Positions 17,568 to 53,609 are shown, numbered from the stretch's first letter. The stretch: DNA of 64,000 nucleotides from Escherichia coli (GCF_030384885.1 NZ_CP128613.1); one strand, 5' to 3'. The notes: a model not told the origin generated them from the sequence alone. A program made the numbers and translations.

Positions 17568-18700
17568 GACTGAAGATTCTCCGCAAGCCAGGTAGCCAGT
17601 TCGCCCGGTGTCATGGCAGCTATTTGTGCGCCGACATTTACCAGCGCCTGGGCTGTATCGCGGTCGTAGCAAGGTGTTGCGGTGCTATCGAGCGCTGCCA
17701 GTCCCAGCACTTTGATGCCGCTCTGGACACACTTTTTCACCTGATGCGTCAGCAAAGATGATGAACCCCCTTCATAAAAATCGCTCACGAGTATGATGAC
17801 GCTTTTCGCTGGTTGTTCAATAAGTTGCCGACCATATTCCACGGCACTGGCGATATTGGTCCCGCCGCCCAATTGTACTTTCATTAATAACTCTACCGGA
17901 TCGGCAACGTCGGCAGTGAGATCGACGACGTTAGTGTCAAAAGCGACCAGATGGGTACGAATGCCGGGTAACTGCCATAAACAGGCCGCCATCACCGCTG
18001 AGTGGATCACCGAGTCAACCATCGATCCGCTTTGATCAACCAGTAACACCAGCTGCCATTGTTCGCTATGGCGCTTAATGCGACTGTTAAAGCGGGGGGA
18101 TTCGATATACAACTTGCCGTGTTGCGGGTGCCAGTGTTGCAGGTTGGCGCGCAGAGTACTTTTGAAATCGAAATTACGCGCCAGTGGAATAAATGAGCGG
18201 CGACGGCGATCGCGGACACCAGAAAAAGCCTGACGAACTTCCTTTGCCAGTCGCGCCATAATTTCTTCAACAACCTGGCGCACTATCCGGCGGGCGGCAG
18301 CCAGCACTTCGGGATTCATCAGATGTTTGGTGTGCAAAACGGCGCGTAACAGGCTTTCAGAGGGCTGCATACGTTCCAGCACGTCGAGATTTGTCACTAC
18401 ATCTTCAATGCCATAGCGCAGTACAGCATCGCTTTCCAGCCGCTCAATCACCTGTTGCGGAAACAGCGTGTGAATACTGTTGATCCAATCAGGGGTGGTG
18501 AGATTTGAGCCACCTAATCCACCGGAGCGTTCACCACGCTGGAGCCGTTCAGGATCGCGCCCGTACAGCCACTCCAGCGCGTGGTCCATCCGCCGGGCGT
18601 TGTCATCCAGCCCACAAAGCGTCGTTTCTGCCGCTTCGCCAAGAATTAATCGCCAGCGTTGTAGCTCACGAGTGGTCAGAAGATCGTTCAGTTCAGACAT
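17564..18700 (-). CDS. yehP: von Willebrand factor A domain protein YehP
   Basis: 378 aa beginning MSELNDLLTTRELQRW; MIDAS motif LVLLVDQSGSM; start overlaps yehM stop. Confidence 0.9.
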   Translation of the reverse strand: MSELNDLLTTRELQRWRLILGEAAETTLCGLDDNARRMDHALEWLYGRDPERLQRGERSGGLGGSNLTTPDWINSIHTLFPQQVIERLESDAVLRYGIEDVVTNLDVLERMQPSESLLRAVLHTKHLMNPEVLAAARRIVRQVVEEIMARLAKEVRQAFSGVRDRRRRSFIPLARNFDFKSTLRANLQHWHPQHGKLYIESPRFNSRIKRHSEQWQLVLLVDQSGSMVDSVIHSAVMAACLWQLPGIRTHLVAFDTNVVDLTADVADPVELLMKVQLGGGTNIASAVEYGRQLIEQPAKSVIILVSDFYEGGSSSLLTHQVKKCVQSGIKVLGLAALDSTATPCYDRDTAQALVNVGAQIAAMTPGELATWLAENLQS

Positions 18701-20982: not shown

Positions 20983-22071
20983 TCACGGCAGGCGGTGGCG
21001 AGCTTGATAATAAGCCTGCCAGTGAGCTTCTTTATGTGTAGCGACACGCTGTTCGAAGTAACGGCGCAGACGTGCGCGATCTTCTTCGTTATCTTTGACG
21101 ATGGTTCCGGCAATACAGTCTACCAGGTCGGCAGGCTCCCCAGCGCGATTCGCTAAAAACCAGGCGCGGAAACCCACGGCGTGTGCTACGTTAACGGCTT
21201 CAGCGGTGGACATAATCGCTGTAAGGGTATCCATTGAGGTTTTCTTTTCGCCGTTGGCACGCAGATCGCGGAAGGTGCGGACCAGTAACTCCAGTACCGC
21301 GTCAGGCACTTTATGCGGAATACCGCTATGGGCCAGCAAACGTGCCGAAGCGCTGGCGACAAGCTCCAGCTCCTGGGCGAAATCCATAATCGGAAAGACA
21401 GTTTCAAAATCGAAGCGACGCTTGAGTGCGGCACTCATTTCATTGACGCCGCGATCGCGGGTATTGGCAGTAGCAATAATATTAAAGCCTTCCCGCGCAT
21501 AGAGCTGACTGGCTTCACCAGTGAGTTCCGGCACCGTCATAACCCTGTCAGAAAGCATACCTAACAGACAGTCTTGTACTTCCAGTGGTGTACGCGTTAT
21601 CTCTTCAAAACGGACAATTTTGCCGTCGCGCATTCCCTGGTAGAGCGGGGCAGGGACCAGCGCTTCCGTTGACGGACCATGGTTGATAAGCAGGGCGTAG
21701 TTCCAGCCGTACTTGATTTGATCTTCGGTGGTAGATGCGCCGCCCTGGATGGTTAACCCGGCATCGCCGCTAATAGCGGTTGCCAGTAATTCAGACAGGA
21801 GCGATTTTGCGGTGCCAGGTTCCCCCACCAACATCAAACCGCGCCCGGTAGCGAGAGTGACTAACATGCGTTCGACAGCGGAGGGGCTAATCACGACTTT
21901 ACGGCTAATATTTTGTGCTTCGTCGCCAAGGATAAAAACACGGGCCGCAGGCAAACTTAACTGCCAACCGGGCGGGCAAGGTGCGTGATCATTTTGTTTT
22001 AATTTTGCCAGTTCATCGGCGTATAACACAGCGGCAGGCGGACGCTGCAGATGATTATTCTGCGGTGACAT
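20983..22071 (-). CDS. yehL: MoxR-type AAA+ ATPase YehL
   Basis: 362 aa beginning MSPQNNHLQRPPAAV; Walker A GEPGTAKS; CbbQ/NorQ-like. Confidence 0.9.
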   Translation of the reverse strand: MSPQNNHLQRPPAAVLYADELAKLKQNDHAPCPPGWQLSLPAARVFILGDEAQNISRKVVISPSAVERMLVTLATGRGLMLVGEPGTAKSLLSELLATAISGDAGLTIQGGASTTEDQIKYGWNYALLINHGPSTEALVPAPLYQGMRDGKIVRFEEITRTPLEVQDCLLGMLSDRVMTVPELTGEASQLYAREGFNIIATANTRDRGVNEMSAALKRRFDFETVFPIMDFAQELELVASASARLLAHSGIPHKVPDAVLELLVRTFRDLRANGEKKTSMDTLTAIMSTAEAVNVAHAVGFRAWFLANRAGEPADLVDCIAGTIVKDNEEDRARLRRYFEQRVATHKEAHWQAYYQARHRLP

Positions 22072-22265: not shown

Positions 22266-22271
22266 GAACGA

Positions 22272-22322: not shown

Positions 22323-22503
22323 CCTGACTGTTGGGACGTTGCGCCGGATCGAACCCATTTCAAGTCCTGGCTACCGGACGGGTGGTGCCGCAGGTAGTGC
22401 CCTGATCCGGAGTGCAACATCGTGGTCCAACATACGTAAACCAGTATCGACAGGCAGTGTAAGGGTAAGATGCTGGTGTTGCGCTCCTTAATAAGGAGAG
22501 CGG

Positions 22504-22593
22504 ATGGACACGCTGACACAAAAGTTAACCGTGCTCATTGCCGTACTGGAGTTATTAGTGGCTCTGTTACGGCTGATTGATTTGTTGAAGTAA
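22504..22593 (+). CDS. zorO: Type I toxin, ZorO-like 29-aa hydrophobic peptide
   Basis: ATG at 22504 preceded by SD AAGGAG; translates to MDTLTQKLTVLIAVLELLVALLRLIDLLK; ~174-nt 5'UTR; recognised from memory as ZorO/ZorP family (which paralog is uncertain). Confidence 0.75.
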   Translation: MDTLTQKLTVLIAVLELLVALLRLIDLLK

Positions 22594-22616
22594 CGGGCAA
22601 ATTGAAACGCATCTAA

Positions 22617-22641
22617 GGGGGAAAATACCGCTTCCCCCTTT
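22617..22641 (+). terminator. Hairpin terminator downstream of the toxin ORF
   Basis: gggggaa-aataccgc-ttccccc stem-loop followed by a U-rich tract. Confidence 0.5.
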
Positions 22642-22759
22642 AATAAAATGATTATTGCTTCCATTAATTCACCCGATAACTTTTTTCTTATTTATTAATT
22701 CATCGATTTTATAATTAACGTACATTTGACCGGGATGTGAGTATTTATGGTGGCTATTG

Positions 22760-22972
22760 GCGAAAAATATCTGGAAACCAGATCGCGGAAAATAAAAAAA
22801 CCTGCTGGTGAGGCAGGTTCTTTTATTTACTACTTTGACGATAACTTGCTGATTGTGCAACATTTCGTACCAACGAGTAAATTATAACCATATCCACACT
22901 CCATTGCAATTCAGTGAGTGAGATTTATAATCCTGCCCCTTGGGAGGTTGTGCCGGATCGGACCAATTTGAA
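22760..22972. repeat. Copy 2 of the repeat; truncated toxin-antitoxin unit with no toxin ORF
   Basis: Homology to copy 1 ends about 15 nt before the yehK stop codon; terminator and both promoters conserved. Confidence 0.85.
22793..22876 (-). ncRNA. Second Orz-like sRNA gene (OrzP-like), apparently orphan
   Basis: Minus-strand -10 (rc of attata 22882-22887) and -35 ttgcaa 22904-22909; terminator at 22793-22825; 5' pairing region diverged (gtgcaacatttcgtaccaac). Confidence 0.5.
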
Positions 22973-22986
22973 TTATTTAGAGTATA

Positions 22987-23304
22987 TTATTCTATTTCTT
23001 GGTTGAATATGTTCTGTAGTTCACGATTAAAAATGGCTATTACCGTTTCTGGTGATTCACCTCGTAATTTTCGCTCATCAATAAATTCATCTCTTATATA
23101 AATCAACGCATCATTTATTAGCGGGTCGGCATCTTCTCCATCACGTTGATGAAATGTTGGACGTAGCCGGAATCGTTCCTGTCGATAGACGGAACCTGTA
23201 AATAATTCAGAGCATTTATGGATCTCAAGTCTGAAGGAAAACGGATCTTCAGGTACAGGGACTTCATAATCATAAGTAGCGACCAGCTCTTTTTGCACGA
23301 TCAT
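22987..23304 (-). CDS. yehK: Uncharacterised protein YehK (105 aa)
   Basis: 105-aa ORF 60 nt downstream of yehI on the same strand. Confidence 0.8.
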   Translation of the reverse strand: MIVQKELVATYDYEVPVPEDPFSFRLEIHKCSELFTGSVYRQERFRLRPTFHQRDGEDADPLINDALIYIRDEFIDERKLRGESPETVIAIFNRELQNIFNQEIE

Positions 23305-23364: not shown

Positions 23365-26300
23365 TTAATGGAAAATGACGTCAGGTGCGCTTAACGCTTC
23401 ACTCAAATCAAACGTATCGAGTTCGGCAAAAGTGACAGATTTATTGTCACGGTACACTCGAAGAGAACGGAAGCTCATTAGCGCTTTGCTATCAGCACTG
23501 TAGTGGTTAAAACCGGGTGAAAACTTAAGGACCAGCCGATACTCGCCCAGGTCATAGACACATGCGTCCTCAAAACCTGACTCCCAGCCTTTGTATCGCA
23601 TTCCCATAAGTTGCCCAACGGTTGCGGATTTACCTTCCCAGCGAGTCAGGCTGTTACTGGCTGACTCGTCAGGTGTGAGCAGCACTGTGCGCCGCATCAA
23701 CTGGCGAAAAGGCGGCATAATTTCGTAATCGGCAAAAACCTGTGCAAATTCACTGCGCATTTCTGCTGTCATTTCTAACGGGTGGGCAATGCCAATCAGA
23801 GCATCCGCAGGCAGGTCAATTGGCTCATCTTGTGCGTTGCAGAACTCCCTCTCAGCGGCCACACGAAAGGCGTTAAGTAAACGACGCGGTTCATTTGCCG
23901 GATAAACCGCCCATATTAATCGCTGAGTAACCAGGCGAGTAAAGGGATGATTAACAAACAGAGAATGAAAATCTGCCAGCGACCAGCGTCGAGTGGTGCG
24001 TAGGGCAGTTTCAAGACGCGGGAGCAGGTTTTTGCTCACCTGAGTGGCATCTTTTTTTAGCCCTTTTAGTCGGGCCAGTGCCTCGGGTGCTTTCAGCTGA
24101 TCGTCATCGGCGCGCAACCGGGGAACACTTTTCTGGCGAACGTTTTGCTGATCAAAGATAACCGGGTTGAGGTTTTCATCGAAGCGAACGGTAAACTGCC
24201 GGGGTCCAAAATCAAATATCAACGCCTGCGGATCATCCAGGCCCAGTGTTGGGACTAATCTGTCCGCTAACTCTTCCTGGCTTAGTCCACGATTTTCTGC
24301 GACCACCTGAAGAAATTCCGCCGCGTTATCACGTAAGGGACGGGATTTCGCCCGTTGCGATATATGATGCAGCTGTATCAGCGCCATATCATTATTCATC
24401 AGGGTAAGTATATTCAGACCACTGACAGCACGGGCAGATTTGCCCTCTTGAGGCCAGGCAAGGATCTGTGTCGTCAGATCCCGTGCCGTGCTTTCGTCGC
24501 CAAAGAGACTTAACGCCAGAAATGCCCAGTTGTCTTTTGCGGGAGCACCAGCTTGTTGCCACGCGGTGAAAAGATCCCAGGCAAAAGCGGCCAGCGTTTG
24601 TGGCTGGCAGAACGTTTTCAGTTGTTCCAGCCCGCAATAAAAACGTCCGCCCTGGGTAAAGCGCAGCATTTCGCCAATAATTTCCAGAGCGTCATCAGTA
24701 ACAGGTTGATTATTCGTGATAAGTCTCGGTCTGGACCACATTGTCGGATGCCAGAAATCAGGAGCTTTTGGAATGCGTGTTGGGTAAATCTCTATTGGAC
24801 TCTGTTTAAGTAATTGATCCAGGGCAGGCCATACATCTGTACGCTGCCAGCGGTTTGCCACGGTTTGCAGTAATTCGCCATGCCCTTGTTCATACAGTAA
24901 ACGCAGAGCGCTGAGTGCCGCTTCGCTGTTATCGCCAGACCTGGCAAAGATTAATGGGATCAGCGCCGTAGCCGTATGCTCCGGCCATTGTAAAATCCAC
25001 TGGCGAGCCAGATTACGCTGGCCCGCAAAACGATGCCAGACGCGGGCAACGGGCAGCGCCAGTTCTGTTGCGCCAAAATGAATCAGCAGCGGAAATATCT
25101 CTTTGGGATGTCGGGCAAAGGCGGTGATTAATCCGGGCAAAGCATCGGTACCCAGGACACTTAACAGATATTCTACCCCGGTGTAATGAAAATCAGCCGC
25201 AACAATTTGTTGCCAGCACGATACCGCCATTTCGCGCGGCATCTGCGCGATAAGGTACAGATTCCACACTCCCCAACGCTTTTCATCAGTGTAATTAAAT
25301 TTGCGTTGGAAAGTTCGCCACCCCTCCATCAACGCAACGCTATCTTGTGCCAGTAATGCGCTGGCGGCCTCTTCCCGGTAGTGTTTATTTTCAGTCTGTT
25401 TTGCCTGATAATTGAGCAATCTTCCTAATGAAGTATGTGTCTCTAGTTGATCGGTATCCAGAGCATCCAACTGTCCTGTGAGAATAAACTCATTAAACTT
25501 CCACCTGTGATCTTCAAAACCTAATTCCCGCAAGAAGGTATCTGCCCCTCTGCTTACGAGACGTTCGTCAAAAGACATGGCGCTAAAATGGTCAATTGCA
25601 GTTTGCTGTTCCGGCGTCCAGTGTTTATTCGGCGACCTATACGCTTGCGGTACAAGCGTAAGTTCAGGTAGCGAAAAGTGAGTTATGGAAGTCTTTTTCC
25701 TGCCACGCCATGGTGGTGAAACGAGGATTTCAGGCAGACTGCTGTTATCGGTGCTATCAATAACCGGTTTTGGCGATGCCGATAAATAACTATTCACCAC
25801 TGCCCGGGCTTGAGTACTTAACCACGGGATCACCTCTTCTGCCAGTTGTGGCTGCGATGCCATCAGCGTTTGTAACAGCGTACGCCAGTATTCATCACGT
25901 GCTTTTTGCTGTGCAGGCAGCTTTTTGTCTTCGATGATAGGATAACCAGGGCGCGTAGGGGGGGCTTTTAACGCCAGTAGTTCTGCCAGTGCGGCGAGCG
26001 TCGCATGGGGAAAGTTTTTACTGTATTTAGCCACACGCTGCAGGCTGGGTTTGTTTTTATCGGCAACTAACAGCAAGATGCGAATAATTTGCGGATGGTT
26101 AATTTGTACCAGCAGGCTACCGCAATCTTCTTTATGGGCATACATTGCCAGGTGTGGAATGGCTGCCAGTCCTTGTTCGCGCAAAAGGGCAGCGCAGGCC
26201 GCGTAGCCGAAGTGGTTTTCATGCGACATGTAGCTGGCTTCCCGATCGCTAAATATATCCTGGCTCCAGTAGCGTTCGAGTTTTTTCACCGCTCTGGGGT

Positions 26301-27015
26301 CATTAGCAACAACTTTTAACCACTCCTTAGAATGAAAATGAGTCCGCGGGCATTCAAGGCCTACCAACTCATTGGCGATTTCTGGTTTCTCCGGGAGGAT
26401 GAGTGCAATAAAAGGACGGCGAACTTTGGGTATTCCTGGCAGTGCGGCAATGAGTTTGTCGGCGCAACGCTGCCAGCAGCTTTCCTCTGCCAGAGAGAGA
26501 TGCTTACGCAGTCGGAGATCGAATTCGTTATAGGTTTCTGAGCGATAACCATAACCATCGTCCTCGTTCTGATACTGCAATGTTACTACCAGAGGATCAC
26601 TCTCATAACACCGTACAATAAACTGGCGTGCAATCACCACTTCAGTCGCATATTCCAGTCCCTCTTGTTGGACGATTTCGTCGAGCAACTGTTGGCTATC
26701 ATTTTGCGCGATACAGGCTAGCGCCGCCATTGTCCGGGCCGGAATTGAGGGTTTGTGCTCGCCGATCAAGTTGATGGCTTGCGTAATGGCCGACTGCCAC
26801 TCCAGTGAAAAATTTTCATAACGCCAGACGATGTTTTTTTTCTTCTCAGCAATGTGTAGCAATTTATCACCCAGTGTCTGGATGAGGCTTTCAGTGATAA
26901 CAGGCACCGGTTCGCCCGGCCAATTGCGATGGCTGAGTGGTGTTTTGCCTTTTTTATATTTCAGTTCCAGTTGGGCGTTATCCGCCAGCCACGGTAATTC
27001 CTTGTCCATGCTCAT
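23365..27015 (-). CDS. yehI: Large DUF4132-family protein YehI (MolR paralog lacking the WGR domain)
   Basis: 1216-aa ORF; C-terminal two-thirds alignable with both MolR-like genes (GAPAKDNWAF...FGPRQFTV...YEIMPPFRQL); begins at the position homologous to just after their WGR domain. Confidence 0.88.
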   Translation of the reverse strand: MSMDKELPWLADNAQLELKYKKGKTPLSHRNWPGEPVPVITESLIQTLGDKLLHIAEKKKNIVWRYENFSLEWQSAITQAINLIGEHKPSIPARTMAALACIAQNDSQQLLDEIVQQEGLEYATEVVIARQFIVRCYESDPLVVTLQYQNEDDGYGYRSETYNEFDLRLRKHLSLAEESCWQRCADKLIAALPGIPKVRRPFIALILPEKPEIANELVGLECPRTHFHSKEWLKVVANDPRAVKKLERYWSQDIFSDREASYMSHENHFGYAACAALLREQGLAAIPHLAMYAHKEDCGSLLVQINHPQIIRILLLVADKNKPSLQRVAKYSKNFPHATLAALAELLALKAPPTRPGYPIIEDKKLPAQQKARDEYWRTLLQTLMASQPQLAEEVIPWLSTQARAVVNSYLSASPKPVIDSTDNSSLPEILVSPPWRGRKKTSITHFSLPELTLVPQAYRSPNKHWTPEQQTAIDHFSAMSFDERLVSRGADTFLRELGFEDHRWKFNEFILTGQLDALDTDQLETHTSLGRLLNYQAKQTENKHYREEAASALLAQDSVALMEGWRTFQRKFNYTDEKRWGVWNLYLIAQMPREMAVSCWQQIVAADFHYTGVEYLLSVLGTDALPGLITAFARHPKEIFPLLIHFGATELALPVARVWHRFAGQRNLARQWILQWPEHTATALIPLIFARSGDNSEAALSALRLLYEQGHGELLQTVANRWQRTDVWPALDQLLKQSPIEIYPTRIPKAPDFWHPTMWSRPRLITNNQPVTDDALEIIGEMLRFTQGGRFYCGLEQLKTFCQPQTLAAFAWDLFTAWQQAGAPAKDNWAFLALSLFGDESTARDLTTQILAWPQEGKSARAVSGLNILTLMNNDMALIQLHHISQRAKSRPLRDNAAEFLQVVAENRGLSQEELADRLVPTLGLDDPQALIFDFGPRQFTVRFDENLNPVIFDQQNVRQKSVPRLRADDDQLKAPEALARLKGLKKDATQVSKNLLPRLETALRTTRRWSLADFHSLFVNHPFTRLVTQRLIWAVYPANEPRRLLNAFRVAAEREFCNAQDEPIDLPADALIGIAHPLEMTAEMRSEFAQVFADYEIMPPFRQLMRRTVLLTPDESASNSLTRWEGKSATVGQLMGMRYKGWESGFEDACVYDLGEYRLVLKFSPGFNHYSADSKALMSFRSLRVYRDNKSVTFAELDTFDLSEALSAPDVIFH

Positions 27016-27018: not shown

Positions 27019-30000
27019 TTATTCAAACAGGGCTTCGATGTCGTTAATTAACTCGCTAGCGGTGATGTCATCGAGTGCGGAGAACAGCGCTTCCTGTGTT
27101 GAATTAATCCCCCAGCCATAGCTTTCTGCTTTGCCTTCCCATAGCCACAGCTTGCTTAAGAGTTGCTCGGCACTGAGTTCGGCTGGCGACATACCAACTG
27201 CAAATCCTTCATCGATTTCCATGATTAATGACCAGCGGCCCAGAGGTTTGATCATCCAGCCGATCCAGCCACCGTCCTGCGGTTCACCACGCACCCAGCC
27301 TTTATTCGACAGCCCCATAACCCGACCGCTCGGGCATTTTCTGCCTGCCCAGCGGGTTAGTTCGCTGGTGTTTCGTTCGACTTCAGTCAGGGCATAACTG
27401 TTGCGGTCGAGCTGGCGGAACGGCGGTAACAGCTCGTAGTCGGCAAAAAGCTGACCAAAGGCGGCGGCATCCGTCGGTGATATTTCCAGAACGTGAGGAA
27501 TACCTATAGAGATATCGCCTTCCGGCAGGGTGAAAAGATCATCGTCAGCGGTGCTGTAGCTGTTATCTTCCGCCACACGGAAGCACGCCAGTAACTGGTT
27601 GTCTGCGCTATAAATGCCCCAAATCAGACGGCGGGTTAAGTGGCAGACCAGCGGATTCTCAACCAGAAAGAGCTGAAAGTTTTCTGGCGACCAGCGGCGG
27701 CGCAGGCACATGGCGGATTCCAGCCTTGCCACCTGCTGGGCGGCAACGGTACGCGCATCTTTTTTCAGCAGTTTGTAGCGGTTAACTGCATCGTTCGCTT
27801 GGGTTTCATCATCGCTTTTGTTCGGTTTAGGCAAGTCTTTCAGGCGGCTGCCGGAAGCATCACGCACAAACGGTTTTAAGGTTTCATCAAAGCTGACGGT
27901 GAACTGCCGTGGCCCGAAATCCAGCAGCAGCGAACCGTTATCATCCAGACCGAGATCGGGCGCTAAGCGATCTTCAAGTTCTGCCACTGTGAGTTCGCGG
28001 CTTTCGGCAATGTCGGCAATTTTTTCTTTTGCCCGCTCCTGTAATGCTTTGAATTTCAGTTTCTGGGCGATGCCGTTAAGCTGCATCAGGGCGATATCAC
28101 TACCGATAGCAGCGAGAATATCCAGCCCGACGGTGGCGCGTTTATGCTGGGATTCACCAGGCCAGGCGCGGATTAATGGCGTCAGTTTGCGGGCGGTGTC
28201 ATCGTTGCCAAGAACACCTAATGCAGTGAACGCCCAGCTCTCTTTCGACGGCGCGCCAGCGGTCTCCCAGGCGGTAAACAGATCCCAGGCAAACTCAGCC
28301 AGTGAGTCGGCAGTACAGGCGTCTTTCACCTGTAATAACCCCGCATACAGCGTATCTTCCTGAGGGAAGCGGAGCATTTCACCGAGGTGGAAGAGGGCGC
28401 TATCTGGCAGTGATTGGGCGTTTGCTTTTAATACCGGGCGTGTCCAGAGCGATGGCTGATAAAAGGCCGGAAGTGTCGGGATTTTAGTCGGGTGATTATC
28501 TAAGGGATCGAGCGCAAGTAGAGCGTTCACCGCATCGGTTACTTCCGGCTGGTTATAACGCTGGGCGATTTCTTGCAGTAATGACGGATAACCACTTTCA
28601 ATCAACATACGTAAGGCGGCGCGGGCGTTATCCTGGGCTTCACCAGCTTTGCCGAGTGCCGCAGGCAACAGGCCGATAATGGCATGTTCCGGATATTTCA
28701 GCAGCCAGGTGCGGGCGTCTTGTCGTAGAGTTTTGAGTTTGTTAAAGGCGCGGGCGACGGCAGGAGCCAGCTCACTCGCTGCGAAGTAATTCGTTATGGG
28801 CAAGGCTTCCTGTGGATAGCGTGCAAGTGAGTTTACTAACCCAGGTAATCCTTTGAGTCCAAAATGTAACATGGCGTATTCGGTATCGGTATGCGGAGAT
28901 ACAGTAAGGGCATTCCATGCTCTTATTGCTTTCTCCAGCGGCAATGTTGTCAAAATCCCCAAATGCCAATAATGCCCGGTAGGTGAATGAAACACCTTAA
29001 ATTCACTTATTAAGGTTGAATAATCTTCATTTAGCCATGCCTCAACTACCGCTTCGGGAGCTTTAATATATGTACCAGCGATCCGTCGTTGAAAACCCAT
29101 CCTTGCCAACAGATTGGCAGTACTTTCTTCATGACTAACCGTGATGTGTTTTGAATACCAGATATATTTCGCCAAAAGTTGATTACTGATTTCTTCTGTC
29201 AGATAACTGATTGGCTCAATGCCTAATGGTGCTAAATCAAGCACCGGAATCGACGATTTTTTCTTTTTCGAAAGCCATGGTGGGGAGACTACTATGGCCG
29301 GCAGTAGATCGGTGCTGGCATGGTTTGAGGGCTGTGTCAGTTGTTGCTGGCATGATTTCAGCACTGCAGCTGCGGGTGTCGAAAGCCAGGGAATGACCTG
29401 TTCTGCCAGTGCTGGTTGCGAGATAAGCATCGTCATTAGCATAATGCGCCAACTATTCTCTTCTTTTTGCACTAGAAGTTCCGCCAGTGCTGCCAGTGCT
29501 GCGTGTGGGAACGCAGCGCAGGCTTTCGTCATTCGATCGTGACAGCGTTTAGTATGCCCGGCTACACGTATAAGCAGTGTTAATGCGAACGGATGATTGA
29601 TATGACGCAACACATCGGCGCAGTAGTCACTTGCGGCATAGGGAGCAAATCGGGGCAGGGCTGCAACACCTTGCTCCTGTAATACGGTGGCTGACCATAT
29701 CGCACCACAATAGTAATCATCAAAAATGGCATATGGCTCGTGATATTTTTCTAATGAGGCAAGAATGTGCTCATCAGTCGCCACTATTTTTAGCCACTCA
29801 AGCGAGGGTAATTTTTTTTTCCCCAGTAGACGCTGGGCAATTTCATGTGCAATTTCTGGTTTTTCGGGTAATAACAAAGCAATTAATGGTTGCCGCCATT
29901 CTGGAATATGTGGAATTGCGGCAATGAGTTTTTGTGCACATTTTTGCCAGAGAGACTCTTCCGCCAGTGATAAATGTTTCCGTAGGCGTAATTCAAAACT

Positions 30001-30813
30001 GGAATATTGCTGCAAGTTATCAGGTGCAATGCCAGACGGCAGAATAATAATGATATTATTCGCATAATTCCATTCAATATCAATCTGTTGAAGGTGTATT
30101 ATTACATCAGTAGCATATTCCAGACCGCCTTCCTGAATGATCTGATCCATAACATCCTCACGCACTTTATATCTTGTGCATTTCATTTCAAGTGCCGTGA
30201 GTACAGCCATTACTGGTGATGGTAACTGTGTTGTTTTCAGGCAGTCGATCTGACTGATCGCCTGGGCGACGGTGTTTTGCCATACTAAAGAACAGGCGCT
30301 GAAGTCAAATGTGGCTGTTTTATTATCCCGTTGCGACACGCTACAGGCTAAGCGACGTAACTGGGTCAAGTTGTCTGCTTGCTGAACAGGAACTCCGGGA
30401 AAGCGGCGATGGCTTAACGTGGTGTGTACAACTTCGGGCGGAAAAACGACAGCAATATCTTTCGCCAGCCACGGTAAAACATCATCTGTATTTTTGTCAG
30501 CCACACGGGCTTCTGCTACGCAAAAGGGTTGTTCCTGAATAATGGTGGATAAGGCCGCTACCTTGAGAGAATCCGTTACCGTTTGGGAAGGTTGCAAAGA
30601 ATTATCCTTCGCTTGCTCCACATACCCCTTCTTCATCTTCTCCGCAATCAGCCTCAGTTCCGCTTTTTCCGCCGCCGCAGCATCAGCAAAGCTTTTTACC
30701 TGGCTTTGCCCGTTGGTACCAACTTTGCCCCAACTAATATGCAGCTCGTTTCCCTGTTGCTCCACTGCCCAGAATTTATGTGATTTTTCGTCCTGATAAA
30801 TATAGGTTTTCAT
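27019..30813 (-). CDS. molR: MolR-like protein, WGR domain plus DUF4132 (1264 aa), copy A
   Basis: N-terminus MKTYIYQDEKSHKFWAVEQQGNELHISWGKVGTNGQ is a WGR domain; C-terminal DUF4132-like region; 3-nt gap to yehI start; which copy corresponds to K-12 molR is uncertain. Confidence 0.85.
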   Translation of the reverse strand: MKTYIYQDEKSHKFWAVEQQGNELHISWGKVGTNGQSQVKSFADAAAAEKAELRLIAEKMKKGYVEQAKDNSLQPSQTVTDSLKVAALSTIIQEQPFCVAEARVADKNTDDVLPWLAKDIAVVFPPEVVHTTLSHRRFPGVPVQQADNLTQLRRLACSVSQRDNKTATFDFSACSLVWQNTVAQAISQIDCLKTTQLPSPVMAVLTALEMKCTRYKVREDVMDQIIQEGGLEYATDVIIHLQQIDIEWNYANNIIIILPSGIAPDNLQQYSSFELRLRKHLSLAEESLWQKCAQKLIAAIPHIPEWRQPLIALLLPEKPEIAHEIAQRLLGKKKLPSLEWLKIVATDEHILASLEKYHEPYAIFDDYYCGAIWSATVLQEQGVAALPRFAPYAASDYCADVLRHINHPFALTLLIRVAGHTKRCHDRMTKACAAFPHAALAALAELLVQKEENSWRIMLMTMLISQPALAEQVIPWLSTPAAAVLKSCQQQLTQPSNHASTDLLPAIVVSPPWLSKKKKSSIPVLDLAPLGIEPISYLTEEISNQLLAKYIWYSKHITVSHEESTANLLARMGFQRRIAGTYIKAPEAVVEAWLNEDYSTLISEFKVFHSPTGHYWHLGILTTLPLEKAIRAWNALTVSPHTDTEYAMLHFGLKGLPGLVNSLARYPQEALPITNYFAASELAPAVARAFNKLKTLRQDARTWLLKYPEHAIIGLLPAALGKAGEAQDNARAALRMLIESGYPSLLQEIAQRYNQPEVTDAVNALLALDPLDNHPTKIPTLPAFYQPSLWTRPVLKANAQSLPDSALFHLGEMLRFPQEDTLYAGLLQVKDACTADSLAEFAWDLFTAWETAGAPSKESWAFTALGVLGNDDTARKLTPLIRAWPGESQHKRATVGLDILAAIGSDIALMQLNGIAQKLKFKALQERAKEKIADIAESRELTVAELEDRLAPDLGLDDNGSLLLDFGPRQFTVSFDETLKPFVRDASGSRLKDLPKPNKSDDETQANDAVNRYKLLKKDARTVAAQQVARLESAMCLRRRWSPENFQLFLVENPLVCHLTRRLIWGIYSADNQLLACFRVAEDNSYSTADDDLFTLPEGDISIGIPHVLEISPTDAAAFGQLFADYELLPPFRQLDRNSYALTEVERNTSELTRWAGRKCPSGRVMGLSNKGWVRGEPQDGGWIGWMIKPLGRWSLIMEIDEGFAVGMSPAELSAEQLLSKLWLWEGKAESYGWGINSTQEALFSALDDITASELINDIEALFE

Positions 30814-30825
30814 TGCAAAGTCCTT

Positions 30826-33800
30826 TTAATCAAAAAGTGATTCAACATCGTTAATCAACTCGCTGGCGGTGATGTCGTCGAGCATGGAAAAAGTAAGTAA
30901 AGGTTGTTTACCGTAGCGATCATCTGGCGAGGTGATTTTTACGCTTTCAACAGGTAACAGGTCGCCATAACCTGTTTCACCATAAATTAATGAAAAATGT
31001 TCTGTTTCAAGTTCGAGATCGCCATAAGGGGTAGATTTGCGCATCGCATAGACGCTGCCGCTTTCTTCCAGACGTTGCCAGCCTCGGCGCTCTAGCCCGA
31101 CAATACGTCCGGCCTGACAGAGCTGTCCTTGCCAGCGTGTCAGGTCGTGGGTATTCCGTTCATTATCAGCAAGACGATAACTACCACGATCGAGCTGTTG
31201 GAAGGGGGGAAGCAGTTCGTAATCAGCGTAAATTTGCCTGAATGCAGCGGCAGATTCAGGGGGGATTTCCAGCACATGCGGTATACCGATGTTTCCTGCT
31301 GGCAGCGTGAATAACTCATCCTGCGCATCGCTGTAAGTGCTGTCTTCTGCGACCCGGAAGCAGGCAATCAGCGTGTTTTCTTCAGTATATACTCCCCATA
31401 ACAGCCGTCGGGTTAAGTGACGTACCAGCGGATGCTCCACCAGAAACAGGCGGAACTGTTCTGCCGTCCAGCGTCTGCGCTGGCACATAGCCTGCTCCAG
31501 ACGATCAATCTGCTGACTGGCAATGGCGCGCACATCTTTCTTCAATTGTTTGAAGAGGTTAACGGCGTCAGTTGCCAGTGTTTTATCATCGCTCTGATTT
31601 GGTTTGGGTAAATCTTTCAGGACTTTGCCGTTTGCATCGCGCACTACAGGTTTTAAGGTTTCGTCAAAACCAACGGTGAATTGACGTGGGCCGAAATTAA
31701 GTATCAGCGAGCCGTTGATATCAAGCCCTAAATCTGGAGCCAGGCGGTCTTCCAGTTCGGCCATAGTCAGCCCACGGTTTTCAGCAACTATGTTGATTTT
31801 CTCGCGGGCATGTTCCTGTAATACAACGAATTTAATCTTTTTCGCAATGCCATTAAGCAGCATTAGCGCAACATCGCTGCCAATATCAGCTAATACATCC
31901 AACCCGGACACCGCCCGTTTATGCTGTGATTCCCCAGGCCAGGCACTGATAAGCGGGGTTAATTTACGCGCGGTGTCGTCATTGCCTAAAATCCCCAGCG
32001 AAGTAAATGCCCAGTTTTCTTTTGCGGGTGCGCCAGCTTCTGTCCAGGCGGTATACAGATCCCAGCCAAAGTCAGCCAGTGATTCGCGAGTGAAGGTTTC
32101 TTTGATGATCTCCAGCCCAGCGTAGGCGGTAATGTCGCGAGGAAAGCTCAGCATAGTGCCCAGGTGGCGCATAGCGTCATCTGGTAGAGGCAGGTTGTTA
32201 CTTTTAAGCCGTGGTCTGCGCCATAAGGTGAACTGATAAAAGCCGGGCAGTGGGGCGATTTTTGCGGGATATTCTTCCAGAGGATCGCTATCAAATAATG
32301 TTGCCAGCGCAGCTAAAACATCAGGTTGATTATATCCTTGCGCGATTTTCTCAATCGTTTCTCGCTGGTTTAATTTCACTAGCAGGCGGAGCGCCTGGCG
32401 GGCATATTCCCGATTTTGGCACGGTTTGCCCAGTGCCAAAGGCAGTAGCCCGGCGGCGGCATGGCGCGGGTTATTTGCCAGCCAATTAACGGCATCCTTG
32501 TAAGCCATTTTTTTCTGTAACCGCTGCGCCATTGGTAAGGCTAGTTCACTGGCCCCAATAAAGAGGGTGAATATCCACAGTCGTTGATGATCTCGTTGCA
32601 AGCAGGTCATAAACGCAGGAATGGCCGTACTACCAAAAACTGCCAGAATCTCTTTCTCACCTGAATATCGCTCCTCAATGATTATTTGGTTGAGAAATGA
32701 AATCGCCTGTTGTCCCGGTAAGTAACAAAGCGCAGATAAATTCCAGCTTTTGTTGGCATTGTTGTGATATTTCGCAAACTCAGCTTTTAGTGCTGGAAAA
32801 TCAAAGCGCAACAAGGCATCAACAGCGCTTTGCGGTATGTATTTTTTTTCATGTAAGTCATCTTCGCAATGCAGCCATTCATTAAAACCTAATTGCCAAA
32901 GGATTTGTTGTTCTGGTGTAAAAGGAATGAAAGATGTCTCCCAGCTTTCTTTTTCAATTAGTGGTAGGTCGGTAAATAAGGTTTGCTGTGATGCCTGATA
33001 TTTCGCGATTTCACTGAATCTGGATATGTCAGTGTGACTGATTAACTCTGTAATTCCTGGTGTGATATCCGTGACGGCAGGAATGGGAAGCACAGGTAAA
33101 TCAAATACGGGTATTACATTTTTCTTCTTATTTATTATCCACGGTGGAGCGACAAATAGCTGCGGCAACATATCCGCAGTGGCATACTCACATTCTTTAG
33201 CTACTGACTGAGGACGACATTCAGATAAGATGCCTGCCGCTTTAGCATTAACCCAGGGAATGACGTCAGTGACTAACTCTGGCGTGACGGTAATCAGTTT
33301 GACAAGCGCGTTGCGCCACTGTGCATCTTCATGTATTGCCAGCAAAGTAGCATAAGCGGCAATAGCCGCAGCGGGATGTTTTTGGCAGGCTTTGCTTAAG
33401 TATTCCAGGTGCTTTTTCTTGCCATTTACACCGAGGATCAGAATTTGAATCGCATCCGGGTGATTCGTTTTCCATAGCCATTTGACAAGATCTTCAGTCT
33501 CGCTGATGCGCTCGAAGAGATAAGTGGGATTGTCAGAATGCTCTTCCACAAACTCAGTAAGTATCCGGCTTACACCGCGCCCCCCATTATTTGCCAGCAA
33601 CATTGCCAGATAAGCGCGAAAATCACGATACAACGGTGGGAAGTCGTATTTTTCTGCTGTAGTCAGAGCTATATCATCGGTTACTACCAGTCTTAACCAG
33701 GTTATCGCCGGAACGTTTTGGTCTGCATAATGTAGCGCCATAGCATTGGCAATATCCGGGCGTTCAGGGAGCAGTAACGCGGCAAAAGGTTGCCGTGCTG

Positions 33801-34623
33801 GGGATAGCGTCGGAATAGCAGTAAGCACTTTATCCACACAGCGTTGCCACTCATCTTCTGAAGCGAGTGAAAGATGATGACATAGACGTTGATGCCAACT
33901 CGGTAGCGATTCTGCTTCGTGATTAGGTGGAATGATGGTGGTTACTGCGCCTTTTACTGGTTTATATTTGAGTTGAAGAGCGAGAAGGGCGATTTCAACG
34001 GCACTTTCCAGACCACAGCGAATGACTAAGTCATCGACCAGTTCATCTTGAGAGTAAGAGTTCCAAAAGCCCCAGAGCAATGCTGCATCAGATTGCGCAC
34101 TCCCTGTCGGTTGATTACCCTGAACTCGCATTTGTAACTCAGCAAAAGCCTGCTGCCAGTTTTCTGGATAAGAGCGGTAATTATTGTCGGGGTCATATGC
34201 CCTGGTGTTATTCGCGATGCGCTTCCATATTTGACCATCTTTGTGCAGATAATTGATATCTCTGGGGCGAGAGCGATGTGGAAAAGCAAATCGGTTAATA
34301 TCGTCGGTTAGCGGAATGACTGCATCATCAGCCAGCCATGGGCGTTTGTTTTTACTCTCGGGTGAAGTTTCAACGTCAGGAGTGACTTTGGTGACGGGGG
34401 GGATATGCACGTTTGCCGAAGCGTCTTCCACATAGCCTTTTTTCGTTTTCTCAGCGATAAGCTTCAGTTCCGCTTTTTCCGCCGCCGCAGCATCCGCAAA
34501 GCTTTTTATCTGGCTTTGCCCTTGGGTGCCAACTTTTCCCCAACTGATATGCAACTCGTTACCTTGCTGCCCCACCGCCCAGAATTTATGCGATTTTTCG
34601 TCCTGGTAGATATAACTCTTCAT
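30826..34623 (-). CDS. MolR-like protein, WGR domain plus DUF4132 (1265 aa), copy B
   Basis: N-terminus MKSYIYQDEKSHKFWAVGQQGNELHISWGKVGTQGQ; diverged central region; conserved C-terminus; 12-nt gap to copy A. Confidence 0.85.
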   Translation of the reverse strand: MKSYIYQDEKSHKFWAVGQQGNELHISWGKVGTQGQSQIKSFADAAAAEKAELKLIAEKTKKGYVEDASANVHIPPVTKVTPDVETSPESKNKRPWLADDAVIPLTDDINRFAFPHRSRPRDINYLHKDGQIWKRIANNTRAYDPDNNYRSYPENWQQAFAELQMRVQGNQPTGSAQSDAALLWGFWNSYSQDELVDDLVIRCGLESAVEIALLALQLKYKPVKGAVTTIIPPNHEAESLPSWHQRLCHHLSLASEDEWQRCVDKVLTAIPTLSPARQPFAALLLPERPDIANAMALHYADQNVPAITWLRLVVTDDIALTTAEKYDFPPLYRDFRAYLAMLLANNGGRGVSRILTEFVEEHSDNPTYLFERISETEDLVKWLWKTNHPDAIQILILGVNGKKKHLEYLSKACQKHPAAAIAAYATLLAIHEDAQWRNALVKLITVTPELVTDVIPWVNAKAAGILSECRPQSVAKECEYATADMLPQLFVAPPWIINKKKNVIPVFDLPVLPIPAVTDITPGITELISHTDISRFSEIAKYQASQQTLFTDLPLIEKESWETSFIPFTPEQQILWQLGFNEWLHCEDDLHEKKYIPQSAVDALLRFDFPALKAEFAKYHNNANKSWNLSALCYLPGQQAISFLNQIIIEERYSGEKEILAVFGSTAIPAFMTCLQRDHQRLWIFTLFIGASELALPMAQRLQKKMAYKDAVNWLANNPRHAAAGLLPLALGKPCQNREYARQALRLLVKLNQRETIEKIAQGYNQPDVLAALATLFDSDPLEEYPAKIAPLPGFYQFTLWRRPRLKSNNLPLPDDAMRHLGTMLSFPRDITAYAGLEIIKETFTRESLADFGWDLYTAWTEAGAPAKENWAFTSLGILGNDDTARKLTPLISAWPGESQHKRAVSGLDVLADIGSDVALMLLNGIAKKIKFVVLQEHAREKINIVAENRGLTMAELEDRLAPDLGLDINGSLILNFGPRQFTVGFDETLKPVVRDANGKVLKDLPKPNQSDDKTLATDAVNLFKQLKKDVRAIASQQIDRLEQAMCQRRRWTAEQFRLFLVEHPLVRHLTRRLLWGVYTEENTLIACFRVAEDSTYSDAQDELFTLPAGNIGIPHVLEIPPESAAAFRQIYADYELLPPFQQLDRGSYRLADNERNTHDLTRWQGQLCQAGRIVGLERRGWQRLEESGSVYAMRKSTPYGDLELETEHFSLIYGETGYGDLLPVESVKITSPDDRYGKQPLLTFSMLDDITASELINDVESLFD

Positions 34624-34720
34624 CCGCGTTCCCTGTATTTATATCCAGTTATAAGCGGATGCTAGCAGTTAATGAAAAAAATTAAGAGCGTTGAACAAAC
34701 AAGAAAACAACTTTAGGAAT

Positions 34721-34753
34721 TCATAAAGAAAAGGCGCTGTCGATGCAGCGCCT
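34721..34753 (-). terminator. Intrinsic terminator of metG
   Basis: Minus-strand hairpin ggcgctg-catcga-cagcgcc followed by ttttctttat, 10 nt after the metG stop. Confidence 0.7.
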
Positions 34754-34763
34754 TGAAGGGGGA

Positions 34764-53586: not shown

Positions 53587-53609
53587 TACGCCTCATACGA
53601 ACAGCACTA

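What the first reader, a model, noticed from the sequence alone, without database searches (positions are those of the whole stretch)
27019..34623. MolR-like genes are intact here, whereas K-12 carries this locus as a fragmented pseudogene (from memory)
Both WGR-DUF4132 genes are uninterrupted 1264/1265-codon frames. My recollection is that K-12 has molR split into pseudogene fragments, so this strain may retain a function lost in the laboratory strain. That would partly explain why the module is uncharacterised.
Basis: partly seen in the sequence, partly recalled or inferred. Interest (0 to 1): 0.4.

Follow-up and report, generated by a model that had tools for sequence, protein, structure and literature searches.

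The report
Intact molR-like gene pair in E. coli
This wild E. coli strain carries two intact copies of a large gene of unknown function; K-12 holds only one, as a broken pseudogene, which was already known, but intact copies are normal in wild strains and sit beside a conserved, uncharacterised ATPase module.

Summary
Observation confirmed. Window 27019-30813 (copy A, 1264 aa) and 30826-34623 (copy B, 1265 aa), both on the minus strand, are uninterrupted WGR + DUF4132 genes. A third paralog, yehI, lacks the WGR domain.

K-12 has one locus here (yehF + pseudogene yehH). It is the ortholog of copy A (93.5% nt). It carries two lesions: TTA to TGA at codon 275, and a +G frameshift at codon ~949. 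Copy B is absent from K-12.

The stop codon is shared with wild isolates (706 of 5426 complete genomes). The frameshift looks K-12-only (352 genomes).

Intact genes are the norm. Copy A was intact in 8 of 10 sampled strains. Copy B is present in about 30% of genomes. Klebsiella has B-, A- and YehI-like orthologs in the same order, so K-12's lineage lost copy B.

But this strain is not special, and K-12 keeps yehI and yehLMPQ.

Function is inferred. The genes form an operon behind an Escherichia-specific LexA box. They evolve fast (dN/dS 0.15-0.29). In 44 of 56 informative loci from diverse bacteria, 1 to 6 or more tandem DUF4132 genes precede MoxR-DUF5682-VWA-SWIM genes. They are probably interchangeable adaptors of that ATPase machine.

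The parts
34731..34754 (-). metG intrinsic terminator, which marks the upstream boundary of the molR-like operon
   Evidence: Terminator-like hairpin with 9 pairs (6 GC) plus a T-run. It is conserved in K-12's metG-yehF intergenic region.
34633..34648 (.). LexA (SOS) box, CTGGATATAAATACAG on the coding strand, 10-25 nt upstream of the copy B start codon
   Evidence: It is the only match to CTGTATATATATACAG with up to 2 mismatches in the 64-kb window; chance expectation is 0.02. It sits at -25 in all 12 E. coli loci examined, before whichever gene comes first. molR is listed among LexA-regulated genes with a known SOS box (PMC6590174).
30826..34623 (-). Copy B: intact WGR-HEAT-like-DUF4132 gene (1265 aa), next to metG, with no K-12 counterpart
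   Evidence: An ortholog with at least 80% coverage is present in 1629 of 5426 genomes, at 88-94% nt identity. A B-like ortholog occupies the first position in Klebsiella spallanzanii.
27019..30813 (-). Copy A: intact WGR-HEAT-like-DUF4132 gene (1264 aa), ortholog of K-12 yehF+yehH (molR)
   Evidence: 93.5% nt identity to K-12 over the full length with one gap. It is 93-94% aa identical to the intact single-copy genes of wild strains. An ortholog with at least 80% coverage is present in 4010 of 5426 genomes.
29989..29991 (-). Codon 275 of copy A (TTA, Leu), the site of the K-12 nonsense mutation (TGA) that ends YehF
   Evidence: TTA is found in all intact A-type genes sampled.
27967..27969 (-). 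Codon ~949 of copy A, the site of the K-12 +1 G frameshift (GATCGGTTAG becomes GATCGGGTTAG in K-12-like alleles)
23365..27009 (-). yehI-like third paralog (1214 aa by the RefSeq start): DUF4132 without a WGR domain, intact here and in K-12
   Evidence: Pfam DUF4132 E 3e-47, no WGR. It aligns to copy A from residue ~107 at 37% aa identity. It starts 9 nt after the copy A stop codon.
22987..23304 (-). yehK, a small gene (105 aa) at the end of the array with no family assignment
   Evidence: No homolog was detected in the non-Escherichia loci.
20983..22071 (-). yehL: MoxR-type AAA+ ATPase (AAA_5)
   Evidence: Pfam AAA_5 E 1.7e-34. Homologs of 59-90% identity lie directly downstream of DUF4132 genes in 44 of 56 informative loci.
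18693..20972 (-). yehM: DUF5682 protein
   Evidence: Pfam DUF5682 E 9e-98. Its synteny is conserved.
17564..18700 (-). yehP: VWA (CoxE-like) protein, the presumed partner of the MoxR ATPase
   Evidence: Pfam VWA_CoxE E 1.5e-71. Its synteny is conserved.
15576..17567 (-). yehQ: SWIM zinc-finger protein
   Evidence: Pfam SWIM E 3.5e-7. Its synteny is conserved.

Best explanation
What it is (shown). metG is followed by a tandem array of three paralogous genes: copy B, copy A and yehI. Each encodes a protein of about 1200-1265 aa built from an optional N-terminal WGR domain, a long HEAT-like helical solenoid, and a C-terminal alpha/beta DUF4132 domain. The genes are separated by only 9-12 nt and follow a single LexA box, so they very probably form one SOS-repressed operon.

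Relation to K-12 (shown). The three-gene array predates the Escherichia/Klebsiella split. Copy B is a presence/absence polymorphism, found in about 30% of E. coli. K-12's lineage lacks copy B. K-12's copy A was inactivated first by a nonsense mutation at codon 275, which is shared with wild relatives. A K-12-only +G frameshift followed.

How copy B was lost (inferred). It was probably deleted by recombination between the homologous WGR-coding 5' ends of copies B and A.

How it most likely works (inferred). The DUF4132 proteins are non-enzymatic, interchangeable target-recognition or adaptor subunits of the downstream YehL (MoxR AAA+) - YehM (DUF5682) - YehP (VWA) - YehQ (SWIM) remodelling machine. 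The conserved DUF4132 region docks onto the shared machine. The fast-evolving parts of the solenoid and the C-terminal tail set target specificity. The WGR domain, where present, adds nucleic-acid binding. In Escherichia, expression is tied to DNA damage through LexA.

Confidence. I put identity, orthology and lesions at about 0.95. I put the adaptor-of-YehLMPQ mechanism at about 0.45, which is the figure given as the confidence of this explanation. The biological target is unknown.
For: Anatomy: (junctions of 12 nt and 9 nt; the metG terminator is).

LexA box: it is unique in the window and sits at -25 in 12 of 12 E. coli loci. molR is listed with a known SOS box (PMC6590174).

Orthology and lesions.

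Population: the TGA allele is in 706 genomes and the +G allele in 352, with only K-12 derivatives sampled among the latter. JP538 is 99.96% identical to K-12, with TGA but no +G.

Ancestry: Klebsiella spallanzanii has B-like, A-like and YehI-like genes in the same order, while K. grimontii lacks the B-like gene.

Loss of copy B: the first 198 nt of the K-12-type single-copy genes (K-12, JNU, OkiPb01700, 503025) are closest to a copy-B 5' end, at 92.9-93.4% against 89% or less for any copy-A 5' end, and TUM14697's is closest to E14's copy B at 93.4%; UTI89's single gene does not follow this.

The genes are functional: dN/dS is 0.15-0.19 for A and B even between intact alleles, and 0.29 for yehI, against 0-0.03 for metG, apbC and yehL.

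Linkage to the machine: 44 of 56 informative loci from Gamma-, Beta- and Deltaproteobacteria, Mycolicibacterium, Myxococcota and Thermoanaerobaculia have YehL-M-P-Q homologs in the same order directly downstream. DUF4132 genes are expanded to between 1 and 6 or more tandem copies.

Mosaic conservation between A and B: WGR 92%, DUF4132 region 64-84%, residues 100-250 only 14-23%, residues 1144-1240 only 17-40%.

Structure: the AF2 models have pLDDT 94-95. The solenoid matches HEAT and alphaRep repeat proteins. The DUF4132 domain matches no enzyme fold.
Against: No physical interaction or shared phenotype between DUF4132 proteins and YehLMPQ has been shown. The link is synteny only.

Some family members stand alone with no MoxR module within 10 kb (P0135 and P0212; 12 of 56 informative loci).

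The LexA box is absent upstream of the array in 0 of 53 non-Escherichia loci, including Klebsiella, Erwinia and Serratia. The DNA-damage link is therefore not a property of the family.

WGR is missing from yehI and from whole arrays in some Betaproteobacteria, so nucleic-acid binding is not essential to the core function.

The yehK-yehL gap of about 850 bp holds a zor/orz toxin-antitoxin insert. Co-transcription of the array with yehLMPQ is therefore doubtful in this strain.

Invariant Arg, His and Arg residues in DUF4132 leave open an unrecognised catalytic or ligand-binding site.

The signal for a copy-B 5' end in single-copy genes rests on about 8 nt differences in 198 nt.
Confidence: 0.45

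Rival explanations
1. The array plus yehLMPQ is an anti-phage or anti-mobile-element immune system. This would be analogous to the MoxR-vWA 'ternary' conflict systems. The diversifying DUF4132 paralogs would be invader sensors, and the ATPase/VWA pair would set an activation threshold.
For: The DUF4132 component evolves several-fold faster than its neighbours and exists as deeply divergent alleles: 72-99% aa identity for A-type genes and 82-99% for YehI within one species. It is expanded in tandem (1 to 6 or more copies) and shows presence/absence polymorphism. It is frequently pseudogenised or deleted. YehP is a CoxE-type VWA protein paired with a MoxR ATPase, as in the conflict systems of PMC7159879. 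A type I toxin-antitoxin locus and IS or transposon insertions gather at this locus.
Against: No protein in the cluster matches any of the 5027 PADLOC models. No effector domain (nuclease, protease, TIR and so on) is detectable by Pfam or by fold search. The locus sits at a fixed chromosomal position in nearly all E. coli and also in Klebsiella, rather than in a mobile island. dN/dS stays well below 1. The third components that define the described ternary systems (VMAP, iSTAND, FtsH, beta-propeller) are absent, and that paper mentions no SWIM, DUF4132 or WGR.
Confidence: 0.2
2. The legacy annotation is correct: MolR is a DNA-binding transcription regulator, acting through its WGR domain, that controls molybdate uptake or metabolism.
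For: The gene name and product 'molybdate metabolism regulator' derive from Lee et al. 1990, as cited. The WGR domain is described as a DNA-binding domain of 'MolR-like TFs' in PMC7824862.
Against: Pfam finds no HTH, Mop/TOBE or other molybdate-related domain in any of the three paralogs. The K-12 gene, on which the genetics would have been done, is a pseudogene with two lesions. A size of about 1260 aa with a HEAT-like solenoid is atypical for a bacterial transcription factor. The conserved genomic partners are MoxR, VWA, SWIM and DUF5682 genes, not mod or moa genes. In Deinococcus, molybdate genes did not co-vary with the induced WGR and DUF4132 genes (PMC8533742). I could not read the 1990 paper, so I could not check whether the genetically mapped molR is this locus.
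Confidence: 0.05
3. The DUF4132 proteins act independently of yehLMPQ. They might be SOS-induced nucleic-acid-binding scaffolds in DNA repair, or clients rather than adaptors of the chaperone. The synteny would then reflect co-regulation or history only.
For: Stand-alone family members exist; one lies next to ssb and a uvrA-like gene. Escherichia has a LexA box. Deinococcus DRA0166 (DUF4132) and DR2173 (WGR) are strongly induced when DdrO is depleted (PMC8533742). The WGR domain is homologous to that of PARPs. An insert of about 850 bp separates the array from yehL in this strain.
Against: The gene order [DUF4132]n-YehL-M-P-Q is kept across phyla, with the ATPase gene typically starting within about 50-150 nt of the last DUF4132 gene. 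That is hard to explain without functional coupling. The LexA box is not conserved outside Escherichia. WGR is dispensable in many members.
Confidence: 0.2
4. The genes are dispensable remnants drifting toward loss. Their intactness in this strain carries no functional meaning.
For: There is recurrent independent inactivation: K-12 (stop plus frameshift), O157:H7 (both copies), MB46 (stop plus deletion), PSS-08-2 (IS1 deletion), JP538 (yehI frameshift), and ST131 L1a (transposon TnMB1860). K-12 grows well without them.
Against: dN/dS of 0.15-0.29 between intact alleles shows purifying selection. Frames of 3.8 kb stay open in most sampled strains. Orthologs of each paralog persist in Klebsiella. 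The family has 8748 clusters at 50% identity.
Confidence: 0.05

Closest known systems
E. coli K-12 molR / yehF (b2115) + yehH (b4499) pseudogene
   Same: Copy A is its positional and sequence ortholog. It is 93.5% nt and 93% aa identical after repair, lies between metG (here, copy B) and yehI, and has the same LexA box and the same downstream junction.
   Different: Here the gene is intact. K-12 has TGA at codon 275 and a +G at codon ~949. An additional paralog, copy B (43.5% aa identical to A), lies between the promoter and copy A and is absent from K-12.
MoxR AAA+ / VWA chaperone pairs (CoxD-CoxE, NorQ-NorD, RavA-ViaA, CbbQ-CbbO)
   Same: YehL is an AAA_5 MoxR-type ATPase and YehP is a CoxE-type VWA protein, encoded side by side. 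By established knowledge of these pairs, summarised in PMC7159879, the VWA protein tethers a specific client or adaptor to the ATPase ring.
   Different: No metalloenzyme client is encoded nearby. Instead the module always includes DUF5682 and SWIM proteins and 1 to 6 or more large DUF4132 proteins. No function is known.
MoxR-vWA-centric ternary conflict systems (Kaur, Burroughs, Iyer, Aravind 2020, PMC7159879)
   Same: A conserved MoxR-vWA core is combined with a variable, diversifying extra component. Paralogs are expanded and distribution is patchy.
   Different: The extra components here are DUF4132, DUF5682 and SWIM proteins, not VMAP, iSTAND, FtsH or beta-propeller proteins. No effector domains were found. 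The system is not mentioned in that paper. It is present in unicellular enterobacteria at a fixed core-genome position.
WGR-domain proteins (PARP1-3 WGR; Bacteroides fragilis Q64V53, PDB 2ra8)
   Same: The N-terminal ~70 residues match the WGR family. The E-value is 7e-17 to 2ra8 with the single sequence and 1.9e-22 with the profile; PARP3 WGR scores 0.01.
   Different: There is no PARP catalytic domain. The motif is WGK rather than WGR (sequence). The domain is absent from paralog YehI and from many family members.

Membership tests
Pfam WGR (PF05406) | Score above the gathering threshold (22 bits) for the WGR profile | tested here: met
   Copy A scores 62.8 bits and copy B 64.7 bits, at residues 7-69. 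YehI has no hit.
Pfam DUF4132 (PF13569) | Score above the gathering threshold (27 bits), with full-length profile coverage | tested here: met
   Copy A scores 170 bits, copy B 175 bits and YehI 161 bits, covering profile positions 1-179 of 179.
Ortholog of K-12 molR (yehF+yehH) | Collinear, near-full-length nucleotide similarity and the same position next to yehI | tested here: met
   This row is for copy A. It is 93.5% identical over 3796 nt with one gap, and the junction with yehI is conserved.
Ortholog of K-12 molR (yehF+yehH) | The same test applied to copy B | tested here: not met
   Only patches align to K-12: 70% over 912 nt and 86% over the first 186 nt. Protein identity to copy A is 43.5%.
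E. coli LexA (SOS) regulon | A LexA box (CTGT-N8-ACAG type) in the promoter region | tested here: met
   CTGGATATAAATACAG at 34633-34648. It is unique in the window, with chance expectation 0.02, and is conserved in 12 of 12 E. coli loci.
E. coli LexA (SOS) regulon | LexA binding and DNA-damage induction of the transcript in this strain | not testable with these tools
   There is only the literature listing for K-12 molR (PMC6590174).
MoxR-vWA ternary conflict systems (PMC7159879) | Adjacent MoxR AAA+ and vWA genes | tested here: met
   YehL matches AAA_5 at 1.7e-34 and YehP matches VWA_CoxE at 1.5e-71.
MoxR-vWA ternary conflict systems (PMC7159879) | A third component of VMAP, iSTAND, FtsH or beta-propeller type that carries effector domains | tested here: not met
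   Pfam finds only DUF4132, WGR, DUF5682 and SWIM. Fold search finds no effector fold. The paper does not mention these domains.
Catalogued anti-phage defence systems (PADLOC-DB 2.0) | A match of any component to a defence-system protein model | tested here: not met
   None of the 8 proteins hit any model at E 0.01 or better.
Molybdate-responsive regulators (ModE-like) | An HTH DNA-binding domain plus a Mop/TOBE molybdate-binding domain | tested here: not met
   No such Pfam domains appear even at E up to 1. The fold is a solenoid plus a novel alpha/beta domain.
MoxR/VWA chaperone-client modules (CoxD/E, NorQ/D type) | A physical complex of the VWA protein with a specific client or adaptor, and ATP-dependent remodelling | not testable with these tools
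   There is only conserved synteny, in 44 of 56 loci.

The most novel reading that the evidence does not exclude
[DUF4132]n-YehL-YehM-YehP-YehQ is a widespread, so far undescribed class of MoxR-vWA-centred system, with 8748 DUF4132-family clusters at 50% identity. In it, a tandem, rapidly diversifying array of large HEAT-solenoid/DUF4132 proteins supplies alternative specificities to one ATPase machine. Some of these proteins carry a WGR nucleic-acid sensor domain. In Escherichia the system has been wired into the SOS response. It could be a new damage- or invader-triggered surveillance system. It escaped study because K-12 and O157:H7 both carry broken copies.
Probability: 0.3. Interest if true: 0.7.

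Novelty: already known. Interest (0 to 1): 0.3.

Why it matters
The finding as written is ordinary. That K-12 molR/yehH is a pseudogene is in the reference annotation and in the literature ('disrupted in K12', PMC3950696). Intact orthologs are annotated in thousands of public genomes.

The follow-up adds three things:
- A precise map of the K-12 lesions and their order: a natural nonsense mutation first, then a K-12-only frameshift.
- The point that K-12 also lacks an entire ancient paralog, copy B.
- Evidence that these genes belong to a conserved, fast-evolving, uncharacterised multi-gene module built around a MoxR-VWA pair, which sits behind a LexA box in Escherichia.

Anyone who wants to study this module should not use K-12 or O157:H7. 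Strains with intact genes include E. coli C and UTI89 (one intact WGR-DUF4132 copy plus intact yehI) and 2013C-4282, B25FEP and E14 (two intact WGR-DUF4132 copies plus intact yehI). Repairing two point lesions in K-12 would give an isogenic test system.

Tried and rejected
(1) PADLOC scan of all eight proteins: no hits. The module is not a catalogued defence system.

(2) NCBIfam: only sub-threshold domain-level hits, namely the WGR part of a Leptospira 'fibronectin-binding' model and GvpN or MadB for YehL. Not informative.

(3) Sequence and profile searches of the PDB: only WGR and HEAT/alphaRep repeats.

(5) Conservation of the LexA box outside Escherichia: 0 of 53 loci, with a positive control of 12 of 12 in E. 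coli. This rejects the idea that SOS control is a family-wide trait.

(6) The search for homologous proteins with copy A was saturated by near-identical E. coli proteins. It was useful only for showing that intact forms are abundant.

(7) The original 1990 molR paper is not in the library. I could not check whether the genetically defined molR maps to this locus.

(8) The delta-molR1/delta-lepA synthetic phenotype in K-12 (PMC4245954) concerns the YehF fragment next to metG. I did not use it as functional evidence.

(9) The simple sigma-70 scan found no promoter in the metG-copy B spacer. The promoter is known experimentally in K-12 (PMC3950696), but I did not map it here.

Full report
OBSERVATION. 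The window matches E. coli strain 2013C-4282 (NZ_CP027579.1, human stool, USA) at 100%. Both carry an N-terminal WGR domain (E 3e-17 and 8e-18) and a C-terminal DUF4132 domain (E 5e-50 and 2e-51). I call the metG-proximal gene copy B and the yehI-proximal gene copy A. A third paralog, yehI-like (23365..27009), has DUF4132 but no WGR and follows directly. Protein identities are A/B 43.5%, A/YehI 37% and B/YehI 32%, each over essentially the full length. The gaps between genes are 12 nt (B to A) and 9 nt (A to yehI), so the three genes almost certainly form one operon.

K-12 COMPARISON. MG1655 has, between metG and yehI, only yehF (b2115, 274 aa, annotated as a PF05406/WGR protein) and the pseudogene yehH (b4499). 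This 3796-nt stretch aligns end to end with copy A at 93.5% identity with a single gap. It aligns with copy B only in patches: 86% over the first 186 nt, 70% over 912 nt in the DUF4132 region, and 84% over the last 56 nt. K-12 therefore retains copy A and has no copy B. There are two lesions:
- Codon 275 is TTA in copy A and TGA in K-12 (window 29989-29991). This ends YehF.
- A +1 G at codon ~949 (window ~27967-27969) turns GATCGGTTAG into GATCGGGTTAG.
With both repaired in silico, the K-12 protein is 93% identical to copy A and 98.8-99.3% identical to intact genes of wild strains JNU, OkiPb01700 and 503025.

HISTORY OF THE K-12 LESIONS. I used 61-mers centred on each lesion. At that length only an exact match falls in the 99%-or-better identity band, and all matches covered at least 80% of the query.
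- The TGA allele is in 706 of 5426 complete genomes, including human, pig, chicken and bovine isolates.
- The +G allele is in 352 genomes. The five sampled are ER1709, a K-12 BZKR strain, J53, C600 and PJ-T13. PJ-T13 has the locus at the same coordinate as J53, so I infer it is a J53 transconjugant.
- About 4000 genomes match the frameshift query over 60 rather than 61 bases, so they lack the insertion.
Direct inspection agrees. Pig isolate JP538 is 99.96% identical to K-12 over the first 2800 nt, has TGA, lacks +G, and has a separate frameshift in yehI. PSS-08-2 has TGA plus an IS1-mediated deletion of the rest of molR, yehI and yehK. E. coli C has TTA and is intact. The nonsense mutation is therefore a natural founding lesion, and the frameshift is later decay in the K-12 line.

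POPULATION PICTURE. An ortholog of copy A with at least 80% coverage is found in 4010 of 5426 genomes; elsewhere the alleles are mosaic or divergent. A copy B ortholog is found in 1629 of 5426 genomes, at 88-94% nt identity. In ten genomes taken at even steps down the ranking:
- The A-position gene is intact in 8. It is broken in O157:H7 and MB46.
- Copy B is present in 5 and intact in 4. In O157:H7 it has TGG to TAG at codon 243.
- yehI is intact in 9.
All single-copy strains carry an A-type gene. Other two-copy strains carry a divergent A allele (72-75% aa identity to copy A here, 3750-3762 nt). The combination in this window, copy B with a 'single-copy-type' A, is uncommon; only 2 genomes match at 99% or better. 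Protein databases hold intact 1262-1264 aa clusters with up to 21,639 members. Intactness is thus the rule, and K-12 and O157:H7 are the exceptions.

ANCESTRY OF COPY B. Klebsiella spallanzanii has three genes in the same order. They are respectively most similar to B (55.6%), A (61%) and YehI (54%), and are followed by YehLMPQ homologs. Klebsiella grimontii has metG, an A-like gene and a YehI-like gene, with no B. The triplication therefore predates the Escherichia/Klebsiella split, and copy B is lost recurrently.

In the first 198 nt (the WGR-coding region), the K-12-type single-copy genes (K-12, JNU, OkiPb01700, 503025) are closer to a copy-B 5' end than to any copy-A 5' end. They are 92.9-93.4% identical to B25FEP copy B against 89% or less for any copy A. 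TUM14697's single gene is closest to E14's copy B at 93.4%; UTI89's single gene does not follow this pattern. This suggests that copy B was deleted by recombination between the homologous 5' ends, leaving the promoter and B's 5' end fused to A. That is an inference from about 8 nt differences in 198 nt.

SELECTION. Against K-12, flanking genes have dN/dS of 0-0.03 (metG, apbC, yehL), 0.04 (yehP), 0.075 (yehM) and 0.10 (yehQ). Copy A gives 0.15-0.17 even against intact alleles, copy B gives 0.18-0.19, and yehI gives 0.29. These genes are fast-evolving but constrained, so they are functional. The rest of the window (50000-58000) is 95-99% identical to 5420 genomes, whereas the metG-yeh locus is 90-95% identical. 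The locus is a divergence hotspot in an already deep lineage. Between A and B, conservation is mosaic: WGR 92%, residues 100-250 14-23%, the DUF4132 region 64-84%, residues 1144-1240 17-40%, and the last ~20 residues 77%.

REGULATION. The only LexA-box-like 16-mer in the 64-kb window is CTGGATATAAATACAG at 34633-34648, with chance expectation 0.02. It lies 10-25 nt upstream of the copy B start and just after the metG terminator. The same box sits at -25 in all 12 E. coli loci examined, before whichever gene comes first. molR is listed among LexA-regulated genes with a known SOS box (PMC6590174). In K-12 its promoter is also activated by BglJ-RcsB (PMC3950696). The box is absent upstream of the array in 0 of 53 loci from other genera, so SOS control is an Escherichia feature. 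Separately, a DUF4132 protein and a WGR protein of Deinococcus are strongly induced in the DdrO radiation response (PMC8533742).

FAMILY AND CONTEXT. The family is large: 8748 clusters at 50% identity have E of 1e-3 or better, and 2590 have E of 1e-30 or better. Most members are about 1200 aa, with the conserved core at residues ~650-1195. A scan of one genome per species returned 71 loci. In 44 of 56 informative loci, YehL-YehM-YehP-YehQ homologs follow the DUF4132 gene or genes in the same order. These loci come from Klebsiella, Erwinia, Serratia, Burkholderia, Variovorax, Acidovorax, Massilia, Stenotrophomonas, Mycolicibacterium, Trichlorobacter, Myxococcota and Thermoanaerobaculia. The DUF4132 component ranges from 1 to 6 or more tandem copies, with or without WGR. 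Some members stand alone. No component matches PADLOC. The MoxR-vWA ternary systems paper does not mention these domains.

INTERPRETATION. Shown:
- The anatomy, orthology, lesions and population frequencies.
- Purifying selection on all three paralogs.
- The LexA box in Escherichia.
- The conserved synteny with the MoxR module.
- The folds.
Inferred (about 0.45): the DUF4132 proteins are interchangeable adaptor or recognition subunits of the YehLMPQ MoxR-VWA machine. DUF4132 would be the shared docking module and the variable regions would set specificity.
Rivals:
- A dedicated immune system (0.2).
- DUF4132 proteins acting independently of yehLMPQ in a DNA-damage role (0.2).
- The legacy 'molybdate regulator' (0.05).
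- Functionless remnants (0.05).

VERDICT. However, the K-12 pseudogene is already known, intact copies are the norm in wild strains, and K-12 keeps yehI and yehLMPQ. The finding as written deserves a low score. The uncharacterised conserved module behind it is the more interesting lead.

Noticed in passing
window 22138-22986 (yehK-yehL gap): This is a zor/orz type I toxin-antitoxin locus. Two OrzO-P antitoxin sRNAs lie at 22183-22258 and 22794-22867 (minus strand; 99 and 91 bits). A 29-aa ZorO-like toxin ORF (MDTLTQKLTVLIAVLELLVALLRLIDLLK) lies at 22504-22593 (plus strand). Only one toxin ORF was seen for two antitoxin sRNAs. The locus is absent from MG1655 (PMC2887945).
   Followed up: partly
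window 23365-27009 (yehI-like): YehI of this strain is only 82-85% aa identical to every other E. coli YehI sampled, while those are 89-99% identical to each other. Its dN/dS against K-12 is 0.29. A middle segment (K-12 nt ~1316-1890) does not align at the nucleotide level. It is the most divergent gene in the cluster.
   Followed up: partly
window 15576-17567 (yehQ): yehQ is 1992 nt here but 1845 nt in K-12 (about 2004 nt in MB46), and only 91% aa identical. K-12's SWIM protein may be truncated as well.
   Followed up: no
whole window; strain 2013C-4282: The strain is a deep lineage. Only 2 of 5426 complete genomes are 99% or more identical in either region tested. dS against K-12 in flanking housekeeping genes is 0.13-0.25. 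It may belong to a divergent phylogroup or cryptic clade.
   Followed up: partly
L004 (O157:H7), L011 (MB46), L091 (PSS-08-2), hit H37 (O157:H7 F6321): The locus decays repeatedly and independently. O157:H7 has both WGR-DUF4132 copies broken, and some O157 strains have IS1203 in copy B. MB46 has a deletion that fuses yehI to yehM. PSS-08-2 has an IS1 deletion that removes yehI and yehK. ST131 sublineage L1a carries the blaCTX-M-15 transposon TnMB1860 in this region (PMC9334617).
   Followed up: partly
L040, L049, L050, L053 (Massilia spp.), L078 (Ramlibacter): Tandem arrays of 4 to 6 or more DUF4132 genes lie head to tail. Several arrays can occur per genome, and some arrays lack WGR entirely. 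This is an extreme paralog expansion of the same component that is duplicated in E. coli.
   Followed up: partly
L013 (metagenome contig, protein P0135): A stand-alone WGR-DUF4132 gene lies next to ssb and a uvrA-like gene, and near an anti-Pycsar Apyc1-like metallo-beta-lactamase gene. This may be a coincidence, or another hint of a link to DNA damage.
   Followed up: no
window 61949-62034, 45666-45762, 2641-2718, 1618-1698: Other Rfam matches are CyaR sRNA (minus strand), the TPP riboswitch upstream of thiM (plus strand), naRNA4 and the Peptidase-S11 RNA motif. All are ordinary for this chromosomal region.
   Followed up: no
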